Below, one piece after another: positions 5,561 to 54,902 of a DNA stretch of 64,000 nt. The position numbers and the translations under genes are program-made. Every line of letters starts with the position of its first letter. The stretch's first letter is position 1. Source of the DNA: Planctomycetota bacterium. Its GTDB lineage: Bacteria > Planctomycetota > JAJSAM01 > JAJVHW01. Under the pieces are notes generated by a model that was given only the letters and a program-made list of their open reading frames with translations, did not search any database and was not told the origin of the DNA. The stretch spans positions 1,888,001-1,952,000 of the forward strand of contig CBDFJG010000004.1 of the NCBI GenBank assembly GCA_965248445.1, read 5' to 3'.

Positions 5561-7060
5561 GTAACCGTTCACCCCTTGACAGCGTGTGAGCCTCAGCGTG
5601 CGACGGGCAGCGGGACCATGACGGGCGGGTCGGCGCCGGTGAGGTGCGCGGCGACCGAGTCGGCGAGGAAGTCGAAGACTTGGTCGCCACGGCGTCGCAG
5701 CGTGGCCGCGGCGGTCAACACGCGCTCGGCGAAGCGGAGTCCGCGAGCGGACTGGCTTCCGAAGGAGCCCTTGCGCCAGAGCACCGCTTTGCGGACCGCG
5801 CGCTCGGCGGCGTTGTTCGTCGGACTCACGTCCTGGGTCCGCGCATAGGTGAAGAGGGCGACCACGCGGGGGCGCAGATGGTTGGCCAGAGCCGAGTCGT
5901 CGTTCGCGATCAGTCGCTCGAGCCGTCCGCGCAGCACAGCGGCTTCGCCTTGCAGCCGGTCACGGTCGCCGTGCTCACCGAAGAGCCGGTAGCTGCGCAT
6001 GACCGACTGCGCGATCATGACGCCCTTGTTGCCGAAGCGGCGATGTCCTCGCGGGCCTTCGGCCAGCGCACGGAAGGCGCGCTCGATGTGCGCCCAGCAG
6101 AGCTGGCGGCGGGCAAGTGGGTGTGACTCGTAGGCACCCATCCGGTCGCTGATCACCGTGCCACCGAAGCGCCGCCCGATCAGCCGCCCTTTCGCCTTGG
6201 CACTGCGGCGGCGATCGATCCCGAAGGCTGTGGCGTGCTCGCTCTCCGCCGCCCACAGCCAGCACACCCGGCCCCGTTCCTTCCACGACGTCTCGTCCAC
6301 GTTGGCTCGCAGCGACGTGCGGACTGCCCCGAGGGCTTCGAGGTACGACGAGTGCAGAGCGTCACTGAGCCGACGCTCACAGTCGCTGATCTTGCCCAGC
6401 GACATCTTCACACCGAAGATCTCACCGAGCAGCCGCTGCGTCTCCCGCACGCTCACGCGGTACACGCCGCGCAGCGCGCCGGCAAGTGTGGTCAGCCGCG
6501 GACCGAAGGCCCCGGTCGGCACGCCATCGGGCAGGACCGCCGTCGTGACCGCACGACAGCGCCGGCACCGCGCCTTGTGCAGCCGGTGCTCCCGCACCGT
6601 GACGAGCACGCGCGGGAGCACCGTCACCTGGTGCCGGTACGGATCGCCGATGCCCTGCTCGAGATCGTCGTGTCCGCACGCGTCGCAGCGGTCGGGACGG
6701 TGGTCCTTGGTCTCATCGACGTTGGACGGATCCACCAGCTCGCGCGCCGTGCCCTCATGGCCCGGCTGTCCGCCCTGCTTGCGACCGCTACGCGGCCTTC
6801 GGCCGCGACGGCGCTTGGACCACGCCGGGTCCGACGACGGAGGCCTCGAGCTGTTGCGGGAGTCACGCTTCAGACGCGACTCGAGCTCGTCGATGCGGCG
6901 CAGATGCTTCGCTTCGCGACGCTCCAGCTCCTCGATCCAGGCCAGAAGGCCCTCGACCATCGCCCGCAGATCCTCGTCCTGCCGCTCGCCCACAACATCT
7001 TGATCGACCGATGGCCGAACGATCTGGATCCTGGCTCGCGACGAAGGGGTGAACGGTTAC
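5561..7060 (-). mobile_element. IS66-family element A, copy 1 (single ORF, ISBst12-like organisation)
   Basis: Terminal inverted repeats GTAACCGTTCACCCCTT; 1500 bp; flanks TTCGCGGC and CGATCTTG do not form a TSD. Confidence 0.93.
5593..6993 (-). CDS. IS66-family transposase
   Basis: NSSRPPSSD, GGQPGH, CxxC zinc finger, VDET, SDR, QLCWAH and PTNNAAER motifs. Confidence 0.95.
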   Translation of the reverse strand: MGERQDEDLRAMVEGLLAWIEELERREAKHLRRIDELESRLKRDSRNSSRPPSSDPAWSKRRRGRRPRSGRKQGGQPGHEGTARELVDPSNVDETKDHRPDRCDACGHDDLEQGIGDPYRHQVTVLPRVLVTVREHRLHKARCRRCRAVTTAVLPDGVPTGAFGPRLTTLAGALRGVYRVSVRETQRLLGEIFGVKMSLGKISDCERRLSDALHSSYLEALGAVRTSLRANVDETSWKERGRVCWLWAAESEHATAFGIDRRRSAKAKGRLIGRRFGGTVISDRMGAYESHPLARRQLCWAHIERAFRALAEGPRGHRRFGNKGVMIAQSVMRSYRLFGEHGDRDRLQGEAAVLRGRLERLIANDDSALANHLRPRVVALFTYARTQDVSPTNNAAERAVRKAVLWRKGSFGSQSARGLRFAERVLTAAATLRRRGDQVFDFLADSVAAHLTGADPPVMVPLPVAR

Positions 7061-25088: not shown

Positions 25089-25981
25089 GTACCTGTTCAG
25101 GTCATGAGTGAGCAGCCCCGTGCTCAGCGACTGATCGGCAGCGCGACGAGAGTCGGCGGCGGTTGCCCGAGCCCGGCGGCGCTGGTGGCGGCGACGAGGT
25201 AGTCGAAGACGTTGTCGCCGCGCTGCCGGCAGGTGGCGGTGACGGTCAAGATGCGCTCGACGAAGCGCAGTCCTCGCTCGCTCTGGCTGCCGTGGGTGCC
25301 GCGGCGCCACAGCACTGGTTTGCGCACGGCGCGCTCGGCGATGTTGTTGGTCGGGGAGACACCCGGCACGTCGGCGAAGGACCAAAGTGCCTCGGCTCTT
25401 GCGAGCAGATGACGACTGATCCCGCGGACTCGACGCTGCTTGCTGTCCGCCCCGCGTACGAGCAAGTCGATCAGTCGCGACCACGTCGGGCGCAGCTCTC
25501 GCTGCATCCTTGCGCGGTCCCCGTGCTCACCCAAGCGGCGATGCGCTCGCATGACGGCCTGGGCGAGCGAGACCGCGCTCTTGCCGAAGCGACGCTCGCC
25601 AGATCGTCCCTCCGCAAGCGAGCGAAAGTCGCGCTCGAGGTGCGCCCAGCAGATCTGGCGACGCTCGGTCGGGTGCCGGTCGTAGGCGCCCATGCGGTCG
25701 GTGACCAGGACGCCGCGGTAACGGCGACCGATGAGTCGTCGCATGGCCTTGGCGCTGCGACGACGATCGATCCGGTGGACCACTGCGTGCTCGCTGACCG
25801 CGCTCCACAGCCAGTGCAGGACGCCGCGACGAGGCCACGGTGTTTCGTCCACGTGAGCGACCCGGCTCGTGCGCACGGCACCCAGTGCCTCGAGGTGCGC
25901 GGAGGACAGCGCACCCGACACCCGCTCCTCGATGGCGCTCACGGTGCCGGGCGACATCGACACGCCGATCACGTCGCGCAG
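25089..25981 (-). mobile_element. IS66-family element B, 3' half only (truncated by element A)
   Basis: End GTACCTGTTCAGG; VDET, QICWAH and PTNNIAER motifs; 5' half missing. Confidence 0.9.
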
Positions 25982-27481
25982 GTAACCGTTCACCCCTTCG
26001 TCGCGAGCCAGGATCCAGATCGTTCGGCCATCGGTCGATCAAGATGTTGTGGGCGAGCGGCAGGACGAGGATCTGCGGGCGATGGTCGAGGGCCTTCTGG
26101 CCTGGATCGAGGAGCTGGAGCGTCGCGAAGCGAAGCATCTGCGCCGCATCGACGAGCTCGAGTCGCGTCTGAAGCGTGACTCCCGCAACAGCTCGAGGCC
26201 TCCGTCGTCGGACCCGGCGTGGCCCAAGCGCCGTCGCGGCCGAAGGCCGCGTAGCGGTCGCAAGCAGGGCGGACAGCCGGGCCATGAGGGCACGGCGCGC
26301 GAGCTGGTGGATCCGTCCAACGTCGATGAGACCAAGGACCACCGTCCCGACCTCTGCGACGCGTGCGGACACGACGATCTCGAGCAGGGCATCGGCGATC
26401 CGTACCGGCACCAGGTGACGGTGCTCCCGCGCGTGCTCGTCACGGTGCGGGAGCACCGGCTGCACAAGGCGCGGTGCCGGCGCTGTCGTGCGGTCACGAC
26501 GGCGGTCCTGCCCGATGGCGTGCCGACCGGGGCCTTCGGTCCGCGGCTGACCACACTTGCCGGCGCGCTGCGCGGCGTGTACCGCGTGAGCGTGCGGGAG
26601 ACGCAGCGGCTGCTCGGTGAGATTTTCGGTGTGAAGATGTCGCTGGGCAAGATCAGCGACTGTGAGCGTCGGCTCAGTGACGCTCTGCACTCGTCGTACC
26701 TCGAAGCCCTCGGGGCAGTCCGCACGTCGCTGCGAGCCAACGTGGACGAGACGTCGTGGAAGGAACGGGGCCGGGTGTGCTGGCTGTGGGCGGCGGAGAG
26801 CGAGCACGCCACAGCCTTCGGGATCGATCGCCGCCGCAGTGCCAAGGCGAAAGGGCGGCTGATCGGGCGGCGCTTCGGTGGCACGGTGATCAGCGACCGG
26901 ATGGGTGCCTACGAGTCACACCCACTTGCCCGCCGCCAGCTCTGCTGGGCGCACATCGAGCGCGCCTTCCGTGCGCTGGCCGAAGGCCCGCGAGGACATC
27001 GCCGCTTCGGCAACAAGGGCGTCATGATCGCGCAGTCGGTCATGCGCAGCTACCGGCTCTTCGGTGAGCACGGCGACCGTGACCGGCTGCAAGGCGAAGC
27101 CGCTGTGCTGCGCGGACGGCTCGAGCGACTGATCGCGAACGACGACTCGGCTCTGGCCAACCATCTGCGCCCCCGCGTGGTCGCCCTCTTCACCTATGCG
27201 CGGACCCAGGACGTGAGTCCGACCAACAACGCCGCCGAGCGCGCGGTCCGCAAAGCGGTGCTCTGGCGCAAGGGCTCCTTCGGAAGCCAGTCCGCTCGCG
27301 GACTCCGCTTCGCCGAGCGCGTGTTGACCGCCGCGGCCACGCTGCGACGCCGTGGCGACCAAGTCTTCGACTTCCTCGCCGACTCGGTCGCCGCGCACCT
27401 CACCGGCGCCGACCCGCCCGTCATGGTCCCGCTGCCCCTCGCACGCTGAGGCTCACACGCTGTCAAGGGGTGAACGAGTAC
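25982..27481 (+). mobile_element. IS66-family element A, copy 2 (transposase 26049-27449)
   Basis: Near-identical to copy 1; right end altered (GTGAACGAGTAC instead of GTGAACGGTTAC); no TSD. Confidence 0.92.
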
Positions 27482-41303: not shown

Positions 41304-42567
41304 TGGAGTTCCCCCGGTTCGGTGGACACCCGGGGACTATGATACGGCGGCCTCCGGCCGTCGCCGCCTCTCGAACTCGATGGGCGACAGGTCCTCGATG
41401 GAGGAGTGTCGCCGCTGCGGATTGTAGAAGCCCTCGATGAAGTCGAACACCGCCAACCGCGCTGCGGACTGCGGACTTGGTCGAAAAGCTGGTGCGGTCG
41501 ATCAACTCGGTCTCGAGCGTGGCGAAGAAGCTCTCGCACATGGCGTTGTCGTAGGCGTCTCCGACCGATCCCATGGACGGCCTGACGCCCGCTTCTCTGC
41601 AGCGCCGCCCGAAGGCGAGCGACGTGTACTGGCAGCCCTGGTCGGAGTGGTGGACGACTCCGAGGGGCTGGCGCTGGCGCACGGCCATCTCGAGTGCGTC
41701 CAGCACGATCTTGGTGTGGAGCGTCGTGGCCATGGACCAGCCGACGATCCGGCGGCTCCAGACGTCGAGGACGACCGCCAGGTACAGGAACCCCGTCCAG
41801 GTCGGCACGTACGTGATGTCGGCCACCCAGAGCTGATCGGGTGCGTCGGCCGTGAAGTCGCGATCGACCAGGTCGGCGGCCGGCGCCTGACGCTGCGAGC
41901 GCTTCGTGGTCTTGGCTCTCTTGCGGCGGCTCACGCCCTCGATCCCAGCCTGGCGCATGAGGCGCTCGACGCGCTTCCTACCGATGTGGAGGCCCTCGTA
42001 GCGCAGCTCGGCATGGATGCGCGGTGATCCGTACGTCTGGCGAGAGCGCTCGTGGATCTCGCGGACGCGCTCGGTCAGGGCAGCGTCCTCGCGATCTCTC
42101 TTCGAGGGCGCACGGCCGCGCGATGCGTAGTACCCGCTCCTCGAGACGCCGAGGACCCGACACATGGTGGCCACGTCGTGCTCTGCCTGGTGATCGCTCA
42201 CGAACCCGAACCCTTCTCTGGGATCGAGCGCGTCTCCCGAGCGAACCAGGCCGCGGCTTTTTTCAAGATGTCGCGCTCCTCGCGCAGCCGGCGCACATCT
42301 CGTCTGAGCTTGCGCAGCTCATCGCGCTCCGCGGTGGTCAAGCCGTCGTCACGCTCTCCGGCGTCCAGCGCGGCCTGCTTGATCCACTTGCGGATCGTCA
42401 TCTCCGTCGGCTCGAACTCGCGGCACAGGCTCATCACGCTCCGGCCGGCGCGGTGCAACTCGACGATCTGGCGCTTGTACTCCTCGTCGTACGGTGGTCT
42501 CGATCTGGGCATCTGGACATCCTCCCAACCTCAGTGGTCGGGTGTCCACCGAACCGGGGGAACTCCA
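41304..42567 (-). mobile_element. IS3-family element (orfA 42198-42512, orfB about 41337-42201), orfB frameshifted
   Basis: IRs TGGAGTTCCCCCGGTTCGGTGGACACC; 3-bp TSD GAG; AAAAAAG slippery site at 42257-42263; DDE motifs; 7-bp duplication near the orfB 3' end. Confidence 0.93.
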
Positions 42568-42579
42568 GAGGGAGAGCGG

Positions 42580-42885
42580 ATGAGCGTCCAAAACGACGAG
42601 AACCTTGCGGAAGGGTACCTGGTCCGGCTGAGCGGGCGCGTCTGGGGGATCGCCCTCGGACTGTGCTTCGGGATCGGACTCTTCGTGTTGACCAACATCC
42701 TCGTGCTGAAGGGCGGCGAGGACATGGGGACGCACCTGGGGCTGCTGAGCCAGTACTTCTACGGCTACGAGATCGACTTCGTCGGGAGCTTGATCGGTTT
42801 CGCGTACGCGTCCGTCGTGGGCTTTGCGATCGGCTGGGGAGTCTGCCAGATCTACAACCTCGCTTCGCGCAGTCGGTCGCGGTGA
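42580..42885 (+). CDS. Small membrane protein
   Basis: GIALG...HLGLLSQYFYGY...GSLIGF...IYN. Confidence 0.8.
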   Translation: MSVQNDENLAEGYLVRLSGRVWGIALGLCFGIGLFVLTNILVLKGGEDMGTHLGLLSQYFYGYEIDFVGSLIGFAYASVVGFAIGWGVCQIYNLASRSRSR

Positions 42886-42986
42886 CCGCGATCGCCTGGT
42901 TGTAGGGTGCATGGAGTTCGTCGCACTGACTCGGTAGCGCACCGAGCGGCGACGGCTATGCGAGCGTTTTGGGGGGGAGGCGAGGG

Positions 42987-44555
42987 GTGAACGACGCTGC
43001 GGAGCTACCTGACAGCGCGACATCGAGCCCTGCGCTCGTCACGCCGCCGGCACGCCCGCATCGCTGGTTCACCGTGTCCCTCGCGGTCCTGCTCGCGCTC
43101 ACGATCGTGGCGCGATTCTTCGCGATCGAGGCCGATGCGCCGTACGCCATCATCTCGCACTCCGGCACATTCCTCACGGACGAGGGCTGGTACACCAAGA
43201 GCGCCCAGCTGCATACCAGGTTCGGTGTCTGGTGCAACGCCGAGGACTTCTGCTGGTACTCGCACAGCTTCTTGGCCACGCTGCTCCAGCGTGCCGCATT
43301 CGGGATTCTCGGGACGGGTCTGGCGACCGCGCGGCTGCTCTCGATCCTCGGATCCGTGATTGCACTGGCGTCCTTGTACGGTATCGCTCGTACCACGCAG
43401 CCACGGGTCATGGCCCTGGTGACCTGCCTGCTGGTCTCGTTGACCCTGCACAATCTCGCGTACTCTCGATTGGCGCTGCTCGAGCCCGTCGGAGTCGGCT
43501 TCTCTCTCGCGGCGCTCTACTTCTGGGTTCGGTTTCCTCGATCGATCGTCGCCGCAGGTGGCGCGATCGCACTGGCAGGCGCAGCGTTCCTCGTCAAGTT
43601 TGCGTTCGCATACTCGTTGATCGCCGCGGGCCTGCTCGTGCTGGGCGACGCCGTCGCGTGCTTCCACCGCGGCGCACGGGGGAGAGCCGCTGCATACGCC
43701 TGCGTCGCCGTGATCGGCTGCCTCGCCGTGTACTCCGTGCACACCGGAGTGGTGAACTGGTCCGCCGGCGACGGTGAGACGTTCGCTGCCTTCCACATCG
43801 CTGGTCGCGTCGAGATGGCGCAGAGCTTGCGCATCATCCTCTATGAGTTGAAGTCGCTCTACACCGTGATGTACAAGACCGGTGCGACTACGCTCACCTG
43901 CTCCCTCGTGGGTGGCGCCCTGTTTCTTCTGATCAAGCAGCGACTGACCGTGCGCACTTTCCGGCGCCGCTGGTCTCGAGCGACATTGGCACTGCTGCTC
44001 TGGGGCGTCGGCGGCGTGACGCTGTTCGGGCTGTTTCGCGGTCAGCCTCCGCGGTACTACTACTTTGCCCTCTTCCCGCTGGTGTACGCCACTGTGATGG
44101 TGACCGGTGAAGTGGTCGGCAAGCGGCACTGGAGGCTGGCCTGCTTGTTCCTCCTGTTCCTGCATGTCACAGTGCAGCTGCCGGGCTACGAGCGGTGGCT
44201 GCGCCGCGATGATCTTCACACCGGCGCGAATTCGGCGCGGCAGATCGTGGCGCGGATCCACGCCCACAACACGACGGGAGAACCCGTGGTGCTGTTGGGC
44301 GGCATTGCGTCGTACGTGACTCTGTTCGATGATCGCATTCGATCGATCGAGTTCAATCCCTGGGAGGGACTGACGGCTCGCCTGCGGCGGTGGCGGCCGC
44401 GATACATGATCGTGGAGCCTTCGCGACTCCCTCAGTTCGAGGAGTTTTCGCCTGGCGTCATCGCCAAGATGGAACTGCTCGAGAGCTACCGGATCATGGA
44501 GAACTACTACACCGGCGAGGACTTCGGACTCTATGTGGTCGCATACTCCGAGTGA
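42987..44555 (+). CDS. ArnT/PMT-like (GT-C) integral membrane glycosyltransferase
   Basis: DEGWY in the first loop, ARL, SR...LE, K after a TM helix, PRYY; many TM helices. Confidence 0.75.
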   Translation: MNDAAELPDSATSSPALVTPPARPHRWFTVSLAVLLALTIVARFFAIEADAPYAIISHSGTFLTDEGWYTKSAQLHTRFGVWCNAEDFCWYSHSFLATLLQRAAFGILGTGLATARLLSILGSVIALASLYGIARTTQPRVMALVTCLLVSLTLHNLAYSRLALLEPVGVGFSLAALYFWVRFPRSIVAAGGAIALAGAAFLVKFAFAYSLIAAGLLVLGDAVACFHRGARGRAAAYACVAVIGCLAVYSVHTGVVNWSAGDGETFAAFHIAGRVEMAQSLRIILYELKSLYTVMYKTGATTLTCSLVGGALFLLIKQRLTVRTFRRRWSRATLALLLWGVGGVTLFGLFRGQPPRYYYFALFPLVYATVMVTGEVVGKRHWRLACLFLLFLHVTVQLPGYERWLRRDDLHTGANSARQIVARIHAHNTTGEPVVLLGGIASYVTLFDDRIRSIEFNPWEGLTARLRRWRPRYMIVEPSRLPQFEEFSPGVIAKMELLESYRIMENYYTGEDFGLYVVAYSE

Positions 44556-44618
44556 ATGCAACGCGGCTCTCGTGCACGAGTGCAGAACAGGCCGAGAATA
44601 CGCGCCGCCCGCGAGGCG

Positions 44619-45119
44619 TCAATCCTCGACGACGTGCGTGGCGAACTCGTCGCGGTAGCGGTTCCACTGCGCGGTGTCGAAGGTGCCATCGCTGAGGCAG
44701 TCCACGGCCGCATAGGCCATGTAGAGCGCGTGGTGCGTATTGTCGTGCGCGAAGAGGCCCTGCCTGCCGTAGCTGAGCAGGCGGTCGATCTTGGACACGT
44801 ACGCGTCGACAGTCGCGAGCGGCTCCTCGTATCCCGTCAGGTAGATCGGGTACGCGTGGGACAGGCGTTTGACGTGCACGGAAACTGGAGGCCGCGCCAA
44901 CGGCAGGCCGGCGCTGGCCAGGTCGTCCGCCACCAGAGTCGCGAGGTCCTCGTCGCTGGCGGTCCAGTGTTCGTCGCCTGTGGAACACGGTAGCTCAGCG
45001 CACACGACCGTGCGCCCTCGGGGCTCGTCGCGGGCCGCGTAGTTCTTCGTCTCCGACAGTCGGGTTATCCGGATGTCGGCTCCTGGGAAGTAGTGCGCGT
45101 CGTACTCGGTGAAATGCTG
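44619..45119 (-). pseudogene. C-terminal half of a FAD-dependent oxidoreductase
   Basis: QHFTEYDAHYFP...AYPIY...GRQGLFAHDNTHH; no native start. Confidence 0.85.
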
Positions 45120-46033
45120 CGGAGGTGGACCTGCCGGCGTCGGTGCGGCGTACCAGCTTGCAAAGACCGGTTCTGCAGAGGCGGTGGTCCTCGAGCGCGC
45201 CGGATACGTTGGCGGCAACGCCGGCAGCTTCGACTGGAACTCCCATCGCCTGGACTTCGGCAGCCACCGGCTCCATCCAGCCTGCGATCCGGGCGTGCTC
45301 GCAGACATCCAGAAGCTGCTCGGGGACGCTCTGCGGGATCGACCGCGGCACGGCCGTATCCGACTCCTGGGACGCTGGGTTCACTTCCCGCTCAAGCCGG
45401 TCGATCTCCTCCTGCACGCGCACCCCGCGTTCGCGGCGGGCGCAGTCAAGGACGCGATCGCCCGCGTCCTGCCCCAGAAGCCGGTTGCCGAGGAGTCGTT
45501 CGGCTCCGTCCTGAACGGGAGTCTCGGTCCGACCATCTGCCGGCACTTCTACTTCCCCTACGCCCGCAAGATCTGGGGGCATGCGCCCGAGGAACTCTCC
45601 GCCATCCAGGCGCGGCGCCGCGTTTCGGCGAGTTCGTTCGGGAAGATCCTGCGCAAGGTCCTGACCCAGGTGCCGGGACTCAAGCCGCCCGGATCGGGCC
45701 GCTTCTTCTACCCGCGCAACGGGTTCGGCAGCATCTCGGAGGCGTACGCGAGCGCCGCACGTGAGCACGGAGCCGACATTCGCATGGGTCACACGGTGAC
45801 TGCAGTGACACGGCCCGAAACCCCGGATGAGCCCTGGCGTGTCACGGCGGAGGCGGACGGCCGTTCGATCGAGCTGACCGGGGATCACATCTGGTCGACC
45901 ATTCCGGTGACGATCCTCGCGCGACTGATGCGCCCCGCGGCACCGCGGCACCGGAGGCCGTGCTCCGGGCCACGAGCGCCATCTCGTATCGAGCAATGGT
46001 GCTGGTCTACCTCGAGTTGGATGTCCAGCATTT
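45120..46033 (+). pseudogene. Inverted N-terminal half of the same oxidoreductase, frameshifted
   Basis: GGGPAG, DFGSHRLH; ends LELDVQH, which joins the minus-strand half through the shared 8-mer CAGCATTT. Confidence 0.85.
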
Positions 46034-47533
46034 GTAACCGTTCACCCCTTGACAGCGTGTGAGCCTCAGCGTGCGACGGGCAGCGGGACCATGACGGGCG
46101 GGTCGGCGCCGGTGAGGTGCGCGGCGACCGAGTCGGCGAGGAAGTCGAAGACTTGGTCGCCACGGCGTCGCAGCGTGGCCGCGGCGGTCAACACGCGCTC
46201 GGCGAAGCGGAGTCCGCGAGCGGACTGGCTTCCGAAGGAGCCCTTGCGCCAGAGCACCGCTTTGCGGACCGCGCGCTCGGCGGCGTTGTTCGTCGGACTC
46301 ACGTCCTGGGTCCGCGCATAGGTGAAGAGGGCGACCACGCGGGGGCGCAGATGGTTGGCCAGAGCCGAGTCGTCGTTCGCGATCAGTCGCTCGAGCCGTC
46401 CGCGCAGCACAGCGGCTTCGCCTTGCAGCCGGTCACGGTCGCCGTGCTCACCGAAGAGCCGGTAGCTGCGCATGACCGACTGCGCGATCATGACGCCCTT
46501 GTTGCCGAAGCGGCGATGTCCTCGCGGGCCTTCGGCCAGCGCACGGAAGGCGCGCTCGATGTGCGCCCAGCAGAGCTGGCGGCGGGCAAGTGGGTGTGAC
46601 TCGTAGGCACCCATCCGGTCGCTGATCACCGTGCCACCGAAGCGCCGCCCGATCAGCCGCCCTTTCGCCTTGGCACTGCGGCGGCGATCGATCCCGAAGG
46701 CTGTGGCGTGCTCGCTCTCCGCCGCCCACAGCCAGCACACCCGGCCCCGTTCCTTCCACGACGTCTCGTCCACGTTGGCTCGCAGCGACGTGCGGACTGC
46801 CCCGAGGGCTTCGAGGTACGACGAGTGCAGAGCGTCACTGAGCCGACGCTCACAGTCGCTGATCTTGCCCAGCGACATCTTCACACCGAAGATCTCACCG
46901 AGCAGCCGCTGCGTCTCCCGCACGCTCACGCGGTACACGCCGCGCAGCGCGCCGGCAAGTGTGGTCAGCCGCGGACCGAAGGCCCCGGTCGGCACGCCAT
47001 CGGGCAGGACCGCCGTCGTGACCGCACGACAGCGCCGGCACCGCGCCTTGTGCAGCCGGTGCTCCCGCACCGTGACGAGCACGCGCGGGAGCACCGTCAC
47101 CTGGTGCCGGTACGGATCGCCGATGCCCTGCTCGAGATCGTCGTGTCCGCACGCGTCGCAGAGGTCGGGACGGTGCTCCTTGGTCTCATCGACGTTGGAC
47201 GGATCCACCAGCTCGCGCGCCGTGCCCTCATGGCCCGGCTGTCCGCCCTGCTGGCGACCGCTACGCGGCCTTCGGCCGCGACGGCGCTTGGACCACGCCG
47301 GGTCCGACGACGGAGGCCTCGAGCTGTTGCGGGAGTCACGCTTCAGACGCGACTCGAGCTCGTCGATGCGGCGCAGATGCTTCGCTTCGCGACGCTCCAG
47401 CTCCTCGATCCAGGCCAGAAGGCCCTCGACCATCGCCCGCAGATCCTCGTCCTGCCGCTCGCCCACAACCTCTTGATCGACCGATGGCCGAACGATCTGG
47501 ATCCTGGCTCGCGACGAAGGGGTGAACGGTTAC
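46034..47533 (-). mobile_element. IS66-family element A, copy 3 (transposase 46066-47466)
   Basis: Same IRs and 1500-bp length; flanks differ from each other. Confidence 0.93.
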
Positions 47534-49424
47534 GAGTCCGCGGGATCAGTCGTCATCTGCTCGCAAGAGCCGAGGCACTTTGGTCCTTCGCCGACGGTAC
47601 CCGTTCAGGGTATGACGATCCGCGGCCTCAGCGCGTGATCGGGAGCGCGACGAGAGCCGGCGGCGAGCGGTTGTGCGCGAGTGCCGCGCTGACGTCTGCG
47701 AGGTAATCGAAGACGCTCTCGCCACGCTGGCGGAGCGTGGCGGTGACGGTCAGGATGCGCTCGACGAAGCGGAGTCCGCGCTCGCTCTGACTTCCGTGCG
47801 TTGCGCGTCTCCACAGGACCGGCTTGCGCACCGCGCGCTCAGCGGCGTTGTTCGTCGGGGAGACGCCAGGGACGTCGGCGAAGGTCCACAGAGCCTCCGC
47901 TCGGTCGAGCAGATGCCGAGTCGTTCCGCGTACTCGGCGGTGCTTGCTGTCTGCGCCGCGCACGAGCAGCGTCAGGAGTCGGTCCCATGTGAGACGCAGC
48001 TCACGCCGCATGCGGTCGCGGTCCCCGTGCTCGCCGAAGTGACGCTGAGCTCGCATGACAGCCTGGGCGAGACGCACGGCCTGCTTGCCGAAGCGCCGGC
48101 CGCCGCGCGAGCCCTCGGCCAGCGCTCGAAAGTCCCTCTCGAGATGCGCCCAGCAGATCTGGCGGCGCTCGGTGGGATGCTGGTCGTAAGCGCCCATACG
48201 GTCGGTCACGAGGACGCCCCTGAAGCGCTTGCCCACGAGTCGCCGCATGGCCTTGGCGCTCCTGCGCCGATCGATACGATGGACCGTGGCGTGCTCACAG
48301 ACCGCGCTCCACAGCCAATGCAGCGTGCCACGACGCGACCACGGTGTCTCGTCTACATAGGCGACGCTGCTCGTGCGTACGGCCCCGAGGGCCTCGATGT
48401 GCGCTGAGGAGATGGCTCCCGACACCCGCTCCTCGATCGCACTGACCGTGCCCGGTGACATCGAGACGCCGATGACGTCACGCAACAGACGACTGGTCTC
48501 GCGCCGCGACAGGCGGAAGACGCCGACCAGAGCCGCGGTGAGCGCACAGAGTCGCGGGCCGAAGGGACTCGCCGTCACACCGCTTGGCAGCGAGGCAGTG
48601 GACGTGGCGCCACAGTCCGTGCACCGTGCCCGGTGCAACCGGTGCTCGGTCACCTGGATCAGCCGTGGCGGGACCTCGAAGACCTGCTGGCGTGTCGGGG
48701 CGCGATCGATCGGGACGAGCACGTCGCTCCCACACGCGCTGCACTCGCGCGGGCGGTGGTCCTCTACGCCATCGACCTCGGACTCGTCCACGAGCTTGCG
48801 CGTCGCCCCTTTGTGGCCGGGCTGCGCACCCTGGCGCTTGTCCGACGGCGGCTTGCGCCGCCGCCGCTTCTTGGACCACGACGGATCCGAGGACGGTGGG
48901 CGCGAGGAGGTGCGGGAGTCCCGGCGAAGACGGCTCTCGAGATCGTCGATCCGTGCCGCCTGCCGCTCGATCACCTCCGCCTGCTCGGCAATCGTCTCGT
49001 CCCGAGCGTCCAGACGACGGGTCAGGCGCTCGACCAGATCACGCAGCTCATCGGTGCCCACATCCGATTCATCGACCGAACGGAAAGCGATCTGGATCCG
49101 AGCTCAGAACCAAGGGCTGAACGGGTACCGCCGACGTGCCGGGTGTCTCCCCGACCAACAACATCGCCGAGCGCGCCGTGCGCAAACCAGTGCTCTGGCG
49201 CCGCGGCACCCACGGCAGCCAGAGCGAGCGAGGACTGCGCTTCGTCGAGCGCATCTTGACCGTCACCGCCACCTGCCGGCAGCGCGGCGACAACGTCTTC
49301 GACTACCTCGTCGCCGCGTCGCCGCCACCAGCGCCGCCGGGCTCGGGCAACCGCCGCCGACTCTCGTCGCGCTGCCGATCAGTCGCTGAGCACGGGGCTG
49401 CTCACTCATGACCTGAACAGGTAC
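47534..49424 (+). mobile_element. IS66 element B 3' fragment interrupted by element C
   Basis: 47534-47596 and 49137-49424 match the reverse complement of about 25089-25431; end CCTGAACAGGTAC. Confidence 0.88.
47597..49128 (-). mobile_element. IS66-family element C, intact (transposase 47628-49061)
   Basis: IRs GTACCCGTTCAG; 8-bp TSD CGCCGACG at 47589-47596 and 49129-49136. Confidence 0.94.
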
Positions 49425-53402: not shown

Positions 53403-54902
53403 GTAACCGTTCACCCCTTGACAGCGTGTGAGCCTCAGCGTGCGAGGGGCAGCGGGACCATGACGGGCGGGTCGGCGCCGGTGAGGTGCGCGGCGACCGA
53501 GTCGGCGAGGAAGTCGAAGACTTGGTCGCCACGGCGTCGCAGCGTGGCCGCGGCGGTCAACACGCGCTCGGCGAAGCGGAGTCCGCGAGCGGACTGGCTT
53601 CCGAAGGAGCCCTTGCGCCAGAGCACCGCTTTGCGGACCGCGCGCTCGGCGGCGTTGTTCGTCGGACTCACGTCCTGGGTCCGCGCATAGGTGAAGAGGG
53701 CGACCACGCGGGGGCGCAGATGGTTGGCCAGAGCCGAGTCGTCGTTCGCGATCAGTCGCTCGAGCCGTCCGCGCAGCACAGCGGCTTCGCCTTGCAGCCG
53801 GTCACGGTCGCCGTGCTCACCGAAGAGCCGGTAGCTGCGCATGACCGACTGCGCGATCATGACGCCCTTGTTGCCGAAGCGGCGATGTCCTCGCGGGCCT
53901 TCGGCCAGCGCACGGAAGGCGCGCTCGATGTGCGCCCAGCAGAGCTGGCGGCGGGCAAGTGGGTGTGACTCGTAGGCACCCATCCGGTCGCTGATCACCG
54001 TGCCACCGAAGCGCCGCCCGATCAGCCGCCCTTTCGCCTTGGCACTGCGGCGGCGATCGATCCCGAAGGCTGTGGCGTGCTCGCTCTCCGCCGCCCACAG
54101 CCAGCACACCCGGCCCCGTTCCTTCCACGACGTCTCGTCCACGTTGGCTCGCAGCGACGTGCGGACTGCCCCGAGGGCTTCGAGGTACGACGAGTGCAGA
54201 GCGTCACTGAGCCGACGCTCACAGTCGCTGATCTTGCCCAGCGACATCTTCACACCGAAAATCTCACCGAGCAGCCGCTGCGTCTCCCGCACGCTCACGC
54301 GGTACACGCCGCGCAGCGCGCCGGCAAGTGTGGTCAGCCGCGGACCGAAGGCCCCGGTCGGCACGCCATCGGGCAGGACCGCCGTCGTGACCGCACGACA
54401 GCGCCGGCACCGCGCCTTGTGCAGCCGGTGCTCCCGCACCGTGACGAGCACGCGCGGGAGCACCGTCACCTGGTGCCGGTACGGATCGCCGATGCCCTGC
54501 TCGAGATCGTCGTGTCCGCACGCGTCGCAGCGGTCGGGACGGTGGTCCTTGGTCTCATCGACGTTGGACGGATCCACCAGCTCGCGCGCCGTGCCCTCAT
54601 GGCCCGGCTGTCCGCCCTGCTTGCGACCGCTACGCGGCCTTCGGCCGCGACGGCGCTTGGACCACGCCGGGTCCGACGACGGAGGCCTCGAGCTGTTGCG
54701 GGAGTCACGCTTCAGACGCGACTCGAGCTCGTCGATGCGGCGCAGATGCTTCGCTTCGCGACGCTCCAGCTCCTCGATCCAGGCCAGAAGGCCCTCGACC
54801 ATCGCCCGCAGATCCTCGTCCTGCCGCTCGCCCACAACATCTTGATCGACCGATGGCCGAACGATCTGGATCCTGGCTCGCGACGAAGGGGTGAACGGTT
54901 AC
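53403..54902 (-). mobile_element. IS66-family element A, copy 4 (transposase 53435-54835)
   Basis: Same IRs and 1500-bp length; no TSD. Confidence 0.93.

What the first reader, a model, noticed from the sequence alone, without database searches (positions are those of the whole stretch)
41462..49325. Apparent IS excision scars: empty sites that keep both target duplications
Seen: three perfect tandem duplications, each frameshifting a reading frame. CCGCGGCA x2 (45935-45950); removing one copy restores RPAAPEAVLRATSAISYRAMVLVY. GTCGCCGC x2 (49310-49325); single in the other element B copy near 25190. CTGCGGA x2 (41462-41475); removing one copy restores KSAARLAVFDFIE in IS3 orfB. Eight bp equals the TSD of IS66 element C in this window. 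Inference: elements inserted and were then removed with end-joining of both TSD copies. That would imply an active IS excision or donor-repair route (cut-and-paste plus NHEJ, or an excision-enhancer-like factor), which is not the usual picture for IS66.
Basis: partly seen in the sequence, partly recalled or inferred. Interest (0 to 1): 0.8.

Follow-up and report, generated by a model that had tools for sequence, protein, structure and literature searches.

The report
Eight-base transposon scars in a bacterium
This jumping-gene-laden bacterial genome carries dozens of doubled 8-base words with no element between them, likely scars left when insertion sequences left (or failed to enter) a site and the break was likely glued shut by the cell's end-joining enzymes, a kind of footprint familiar from plants and animals but hardly documented in bacteria.

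Summary
All three duplications are real, derived and frameshifting. The window alone is weak evidence, but the genome (planctomycete-like, 5.4 Mb, about 116 IS66 and IS1595 copies with 8-bp target duplications) shows a specific surplus at 8 bp. Of 163 8-bp tandem duplications, 12 frameshift a gene (1.6 expected). Near IS elements there are 53, against 20 expected; 4, 5, 6 and 9 bp show no surplus. The sites carry a partial IS66 target signature, and most lack the microhomology that slippage needs. Three single-copy sites are spanned without an IS by contigs of four runs (one sample). Same-family relatives show no surplus. An intact Ku-LigD locus is present; no full IEE was found. Best reading: IS-made 8-base scars closed by end joining, after flush excision (0.45) or an aborted insertion (0.25). 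No site was shown to have held an IS. The 7-bp IS3 case is one event copied into three elements. The scan found excision scars before only in eukaryotic DNA.

The parts
45935..45950 (+). 8-bp tandem duplication (match runs 11 bases, so 4 possible registers) that frameshifts an FAD-dependent oxidoreductase gene
   Evidence: local IS66 target percentile 0.88
45109..46033 (+). FAD oxidoreductase pseudogene (PRK07208-like), frameshifted by the duplication and cut off 84 bases later by IS66 element A; its 3' part was not seen beside another A end
46034..47533 (-). IS66 element A, single ORF, 1500 bp; flanks do not match (rearranged)
47534..49424 (+). remnant of IS66 element B, truncated by A and interrupted by C
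47597..49128 (-). IS66 element C, 1532 bp, with intact 8-bp target duplication (47589-47596 and 49129-49136)
49310..49325 (+). 8-bp tandem duplication in the 3' end of the B transposase frame; single in the other B copies
   Evidence: percentile 0.84
41304..42567 (-). IS3-family element H with intact 3-bp target duplication
41462..41475 (+). 7-bp tandem duplication in IS3 orfB, shared by 3 of 10 full copies; fits an 8-bp target joined through one shared terminal base (inference)
   Evidence: percentile 0.92
25089..25981 (-). second B copy (truncated by A) showing the single, ancestral 8-mer at 25188-25195

Best explanation
These doubled 8-base words are likely footprints of this genome's own insertion sequences, mostly the single-ORF IS66 elements: an element likely inserted and doubled its 8-base target, was likely cut out flush at both ends later, and the two blunt chromosome ends were likely rejoined by the Ku-LigD machinery encoded in the genome. 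Shown: derived state, 8-bp length peak, clustering near IS, partial IS66 target signature, no IS-end remnants, intact Ku/LigD genes. Inferred: prior occupancy, double-strand excision by the transposase, the role of Ku/LigD, and that 7-bp cases are joints that lost one base.
For: Target-duplication length is exactly 8 for six families: left ends with an 8-base mate are A 18 of 49, B 3 of 6, C 31 of 35, I 9 of 10, J 5 of 6, J2 5 of 6; none in shifted controls. Frameshifting 8-bp duplications: 13 of 163, 12 after dropping one gene junction, 1.6 expected; 0 of 55 at 10-17 bp; samples of about 1500 at 1, 2, 4, 5 bp near expectation. Independent of the coding model: density within 3 kb of an IS over density elsewhere is 2.54 at 8 bp (53/102; 20.3 expected, P about 1e-9) and 0.96-1.09 at 4, 5, 6, 9 bp. 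IS66 target matrix (53 sites): mean local percentile 0.66 (18 frameshift sites, including the later-dropped junction), 0.67 (74 other sites, P 2e-6), 0.51 (69 in-frame chance sites); the signal holds on flanks alone. 15 of 18 sites have 0-3 bases of extra match, close to random duplication. Tandem-duplication insertions of 4 or more bases against paralogous copies are 8, 8 and 7 bp. 0 of 24 in-frame 9-bp duplications are derived. Control: 2 of 120 (1.6 expected) in 2.32 Mb of three same-family genomes, Fisher P 0.024. Ku, LigD polymerase and NHEJ ligase pass curated cut-offs; Ku was not found in 16 of 16 family and order relatives. Three right-end/right-end target pairs among IS66 ends (0 in 6 shifted controls, which gave 0-1 left/left pairs) and many orphaned ends suggest breaks at element ends.
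Against: No scar has a filled counterpart elsewhere in the genome, and no IS-filled allele was seen in contigs, which drop rare variants. An ISBst12-group IS66 was reported to keep its donor sites (PMC12898284, passages). The target signature is partial (0.66 against 0.88 for true sites), and 7-bp in-frame controls show a small baseline bias (0.56). 10-bp duplications are also enriched near IS (7/8, P 0.006), which the model does not explain. The 7-bp surplus is weak (6 of 466, 3.4 expected). The control genomes differ in IS load, Ku, GC and assembly all at once, so they do not isolate NHEJ. In genes with homologues, most of 21 frameshift candidates are 1- or 2-base events.
Confidence: 0.45

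Rival explanations
1. Aborted insertion: the transposase makes its 8-base staggered cut in a target but the element is not joined; the 5' overhangs are filled in and ligated by end joining, giving the same doubled word at a site that never held an IS.
For: Predicts the same length, target signature and clean joints. Needs no change to the copy-and-paste picture of IS66. Templated fill-in at 5' overhangs is a documented outcome of bacterial NHEJ (PMC4176160 and PMC5869714, passages). No filled counterpart was found.
Against: DDE enzymes cut the target by strand transfer of the element's own ends, so a paired cut without joining should be rare (own knowledge). About 33 surplus sites near IS alone, against about 116 resident elements, asks for a high rate.
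Confidence: 0.25
2. Transposase-only removal: after gap filling, or at a later time, the flank 3' ends attack the element-flank junctions (a disintegration-like reaction), or another host ligation route joins them, with no part for Ku/LigD.
For: Joints are exact, with no added or palindromic bases, whereas NHEJ often adds or removes bases.
Against: No precedent found in my searches; the one-base-shorter class fits end processing; Ku is peculiar to this genome among the relatives searched.
Confidence: 0.12
3. Replication slippage or general break repair in decaying, IS-rich regions under relaxed selection; 8 bp stands out by chance.
For: 3 of 18 sites have 5-8 bases of extra match, typical of slippage; the 45935 site has 3. 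10-bp, 12-bp and one 5-bp derived or enriched duplications occur. Relatives have occasional 7-10 bp candidates.
Against: No surplus at 4, 5, 6 or 9 bp near IS; 15 of 18 sites lack long microhomology; IS66 target signature in flanks outside the unit.
Confidence: 0.13
4. Assembly or polishing artefact: an IS present in part of the population was dropped and both target copies were kept.
For: The genome is a metagenome-type assembly with 10.7% repeats; the 49310 site was not bridged by a listed contig.
Against: Three single-copy sites (45935; C3:61347; C3:70300) are spanned with 0 differences in 4 of 4 runs by separately built contigs; the IS3 duplication sits in three copies at three loci.
Confidence: 0.03

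Closest known systems
Excision footprints of eukaryotic cut-and-paste transposons (Ac/Ds hAT, Mutator, Tc1/mariner; recalled, and search listings)
   Same: Both target copies stay at an empty site; length equals the target duplication; frameshifts genes; end joining is the likely repair.
   Different: Bacterial; joints are exact, with no palindromic bases and no element-end bases; the likely agents are IS66 and IS1595.
IEE-stimulated IS excision (IS629, IS1, IS30; bioRxiv 10.1101/2023.06.07.543989, passages and sections 7 and 11 read)
   Same: A bacterial route that removes an IS from its donor site.
   Different: Gives precise excision or microhomology deletions, not a doubled target; no full AEP-plus-SF2 protein was found here.
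ISBst12 group of IS66 (ISDge4; PMC12898284, passages)
   Same: Single ORF, GT(A)-starting inverted repeats, 8-bp target duplication.
   Different: ISDge4 donors were retained (copy-and-paste); no empty-site scars appear in the passages read.
Bacterial Ku-LigD NHEJ (Mycobacterium, Streptomyces; PMC4176160, PMC5869714, passages)
   Same: Joins blunt ends and fills 5' overhangs, giving short templated insertions.
   Different: Studied with engineered nuclease breaks, not natural IS donor or target breaks.
Target duplication left as a footprint, as discussed for haloarchaea and casposons (PMC3119063, PMC10359463, passages)
   Same: The outcome is named as a possibility, with the frameshift it would cause.
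   Different: Both papers found single-copy (traceless) sites instead.

Membership tests
Transposon excision footprint | Duplication length equals the target duplication of a resident element | tested here: met
   8 bp for six families; surplus at 8 bp
Transposon excision footprint | Site matches the element's target preference | tested here: met
   as a set, partially: percentile 0.66-0.67 against 0.51 in controls and 0.88 for true sites; single sites cannot be assigned
Transposon excision footprint | The site once held the element (a filled allele exists) | tested here: inconclusive
   no filled paralogue; none in contigs, which drop rare variants
Transposon excision footprint | Depends on the transposase and on end joining | not testable with these tools
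   Ku/LigD present and intact; dependence needs genetics
hAT- or Tc1-type footprint | Palindromic or element-end bases at the joint | tested here: not met
   no surplus of imperfect period-8 repeats; spacers show no motif
IEE-mediated excision | Full-length AEP-TOTE plus SF2 helicase protein | tested here: not met
   4 AEP-TOTE ORFs without SF2 domain; one separate helicase-only match; genome 92% complete
IEE-mediated excision | Joint at a microhomology or a single target copy | tested here: not met
   both copies are kept; expected products
IS66, ISBst12 group (elements A, B, C) | Single ORF with IS66 DDE domain, GTA-starting inverted repeats, 8-bp duplication | tested here: met
IS1595 (elements I, J, J2) | Zinc ribbon plus ISXO2-like DDE domain, 8-bp duplication | tested here: met
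Slipped-strand duplication | Pre-existing microhomology and a smooth length spectrum | tested here: not met
   15 of 18 sites with 0-3 extra bases; peak at 8; met for 3 of 18

The most novel reading that the evidence does not exclude
Single-ORF IS66 elements can leave their donor site by flush double-strand excision, and a lineage-specific Ku-LigD system turns these otherwise lethal breaks into eukaryote-style footprints. Any NHEJ-positive, IS-rich bacterial genome then holds a readable fossil record of lost elements and of each family's cutting chemistry.
Probability: 0.3. Interest if true: 0.8.

Novelty: new variant of a known kind. Interest (0 to 1): 0.57.

Why it matters
The pathway of IS66 is poorly characterised, and the fate of bacterial donor sites is usually invisible because repair is traceless or lethal. 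A length-specific scar class gives a cheap genomic read-out: scan IS-rich genomes with and without Ku for duplications of target length. It would also add a lasting route of gene loss, since the frameshift outlives the element (here even in the only mnmA), and warns that some short 'slippage' indels in bacteria are transposon-made.

Tried and rejected
Target-remnant-target structures: no surplus. An apparent excess of 8-base repeats with a 3-base spacer (25/55) had no common spacer and no target signature, so it is treated as noise among many cells tested. Hairpin-type imperfect footprints: none. CTAG scars of the IS1380 elements: 3 doubled words, not convincing. C3:805532 is the nuoH-nuoI gene junction, a false positive, dropped. 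Of 20 sites sent to Pfam, 4 split one family cleanly, 3 were consistent, 1 was false and 12 were uninformative. Local hopping: 4 of 16 frameshift sites lie within 1 kb of an A end, but the larger 'other' set lies equally near IS1380 ends, so relaxed selection suffices. No IS66 or IS1595 end-to-end junctions in the genome. The loose scan mostly caught gene junctions and was used only for its tallies. PF01896 found nothing. No solved structure matched transposase C, and its fold job never finished. A Ku-negative, IS66-rich control (G048, G313, G119, G146) was identified but could not be fetched at useful size. Papers not held: Kusumoto 2011, Han 2001, Aniukwu 2008. bioRxiv supplements were closed and none were read.
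Full report
Setting. The window lies on one of four contigs of a 5.40-Mb genome, GC 0.69, 92% complete. Its Ku has its best matches mostly in Planctomycetota, in line with earlier notes on this genome. Repeats make up 10.7%. Families: three single-ORF IS66 elements (A about 49 copies, B 7, C 38), three IS1595 (I 10, J 6, J2 7), IS3, two IS1380-type and an IS3/IS481-like element. All six IS66 and IS1595 families make 8-bp target duplications, though many have been separated by rearrangement: only 2 of 41 full A copies and 14 of 32 full C copies keep their own pair.

The three sites. All are present as described. At 45935, orthologues from two same-family genomes run through the site without a gap only when one copy is counted, and one contig per run spans it unchanged at single-copy depth in 4 of 4 runs of one sample, library type not on record. 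The gene is also cut by element A 84 bases on. At 49310 the duplication is private to this B remnant; no listed contig bridged it. At 41462 the 7-bp duplication is shared by 3 of 10 full IS3 copies that are otherwise identical, two of them with intact 3-bp target duplications, so it arose once and was copied afterwards. By chance 1.6 8-bp duplications are expected per 64 kb; the window has 4.

Genome-wide test 1, frameshifts. With a coding model trained on the genome, 13 of 163 non-IS 8-bp duplications join two coding frames, against 1.6 expected from random positions; one is the nuoH-nuoI junction and was dropped. 7 bp gave 6 of 466 (3.4 expected); 10-17 bp gave 0 of 55; samples of about 1500 each at 1, 2, 4 and 5 bp gave 8, 25, 9 and 15 against 5, 19, 9 and 15. 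An earlier setting gave 12 of 164 against 1.0. Pfam on the two halves of 20 sites showed one family split at the duplication in 4 (sigma-54 activator positions 1-96 and 97-167; a glycosyltransferase; a DnaJ-C28 domain; a 7-bp case in a mannosyltransferase), consistent domains in 3, one false and 12 uninformative. Two more single-copy sites, one in the only mnmA, are spanned unchanged in 4 of 4 runs. In 2.32 Mb of three same-family genomes the same test gave 2 of 120, 1.6 expected (Fisher P 0.024).

Genome-wide test 2, without a coding model. Density within 3 kb of an IS divided by density elsewhere is 0.98, 0.97, 0.96, 1.27, 2.54, 1.09 and 4.3 for 4 to 10 bp. At 8 bp that is 53 observed against 20.3, about 33 surplus sites near IS; with frameshift sites farther away I infer 30-45 scars against about 116 resident elements. 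The 10-bp value rests on 7 against 8 sites and is unexplained.

Who made them. A target matrix from 53 reconstructed IS66 sites ranks true sites at percentile 0.88, the frameshift set at 0.66, other non-in-frame duplications at 0.67 and in-frame chance duplications at 0.51; on flanks alone 0.62, 0.62 and 0.45. The three window sites rank 0.88, 0.84 and 0.92. IS1595 matrices fit worse overall, though one site fits element I well. So a good part, perhaps 40%, looks IS66-made (inference from the means); single sites cannot be assigned. Extra match beside the unit is 0, 1, 2, 3 bases in 7, 5, 1, 2 of 18 sites (9.6, 5.0, 2.2, 0.7 expected for a random 8-mer) and 5-8 bases in 3, which I count as slippage. 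Unbiased sets give tandem insertions of 8, 8 and 7 bp plus three of 3 bp against paralogues, and one of 8 and one of 5 bp among 21 homology-defined frameshift candidates, most of which are 1- or 2-base events. In-frame duplications, which selection tolerates better, are rarely derived: 0 of 24 at 9 bp, 2 of 628 at 6 bp, 1 of 4 at 12 bp.

Repair genes. Ku, a LigD ligase-polymerase frame and a second NHEJ ligase lie together on C1. Ku was not found in 16 family and order relatives and was found in 47 of 301 genomes of the phylum. No full IEE was found: four AEP-TOTE primases in repeated mobile elements lack the SF2 helicase.

Mechanism. An exact doubled target needs either flush removal of an element and blunt joining, or fill-in of an 8-base staggered cut with no element joined. 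Replicative and copy-out routes regenerate the donor (PMC7780238, passages), and IEE-type events collapse to a microhomology, so neither gives this product (inference). I favour excision because paired target cuts without joining should be rare (own knowledge), and because orphaned ends and three right-end/right-end target pairs hint at breaks at IS66 ends. Against it: no filled counterpart exists for any scar, and an ISBst12-group element was reported to keep its donors. Together the IS-made readings carry about 0.8.

Literature. Ten full-text searches found no genome-wide record of doubled-target scars in a bacterium; the library lacks most subscription papers, so this is not proof of absence. 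The outcome is named as a possibility for haloarchaeal transposons and casposons, where single-copy sites were found instead (passages). Fill-in at 5' overhangs by bacterial NHEJ is documented (passages). PMC8860574, PMC5001619 and PMC5933015 were read as passages and added only background. Earlier notes of this scan on such scars concern eukaryotes only; two further look-ups for bacterial cases returned nothing.

Verdict. A real, length-specific class of IS-related scars; a new variant of a known kind; mechanism open between excision and aborted insertion; interest 0.57.

Noticed in passing
L120:12030-12900 (G000 C3:70028-70900, minus strand): The only mnmA found carries an 8-bp frameshifting duplication and is also cut by an IS66 A copy; contigs of 4 runs match the duplication and run into the IS end.
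   Followed up: partly
   Followed up: no
genome-wide; window 5561-7060, 25982-27481, 46034-47533, 53403-54902: IS66 A keeps its own target pair in only 2 of 41 full copies and 56 of 98 ends have no mate; mates often sit at distant copies, a sign of heavy IS-driven reshuffling.
   Followed up: partly
L001 and L019 (G000 C1:348361-352341): Ku-LigD-ligase locus; Ku not found in 16 family and order relatives, so possibly acquired.
   Followed up: partly
L015 and G000 C3:1699463, C4:34278, C4:1378112: IS1595 element I repeatedly targets the end of IS1380-type element G.
   Followed up: no
G000 C3:1042927, C3:1103335, C4:1199763-1201440: IS1380-type element F forms head-to-tail dimers and a trimer joined by CTAG.
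   Followed up: no
L127, L128, L129 (near contig ends): Contig ends lie in 7-22 kb repeated elements, two kinds of which carry 930-1010 aa AEP-TOTE primases with an unassigned C-terminal part.
   Followed up: partly
genome-wide: 10-bp tandem duplications are also enriched near IS (7 near, 8 far); no element with a 10-bp target duplication was identified.
   Followed up: partly
window 45549-45578: Contigs of all four runs break here in single-copy DNA, hinting at a variant or short repeat.
   Followed up: no
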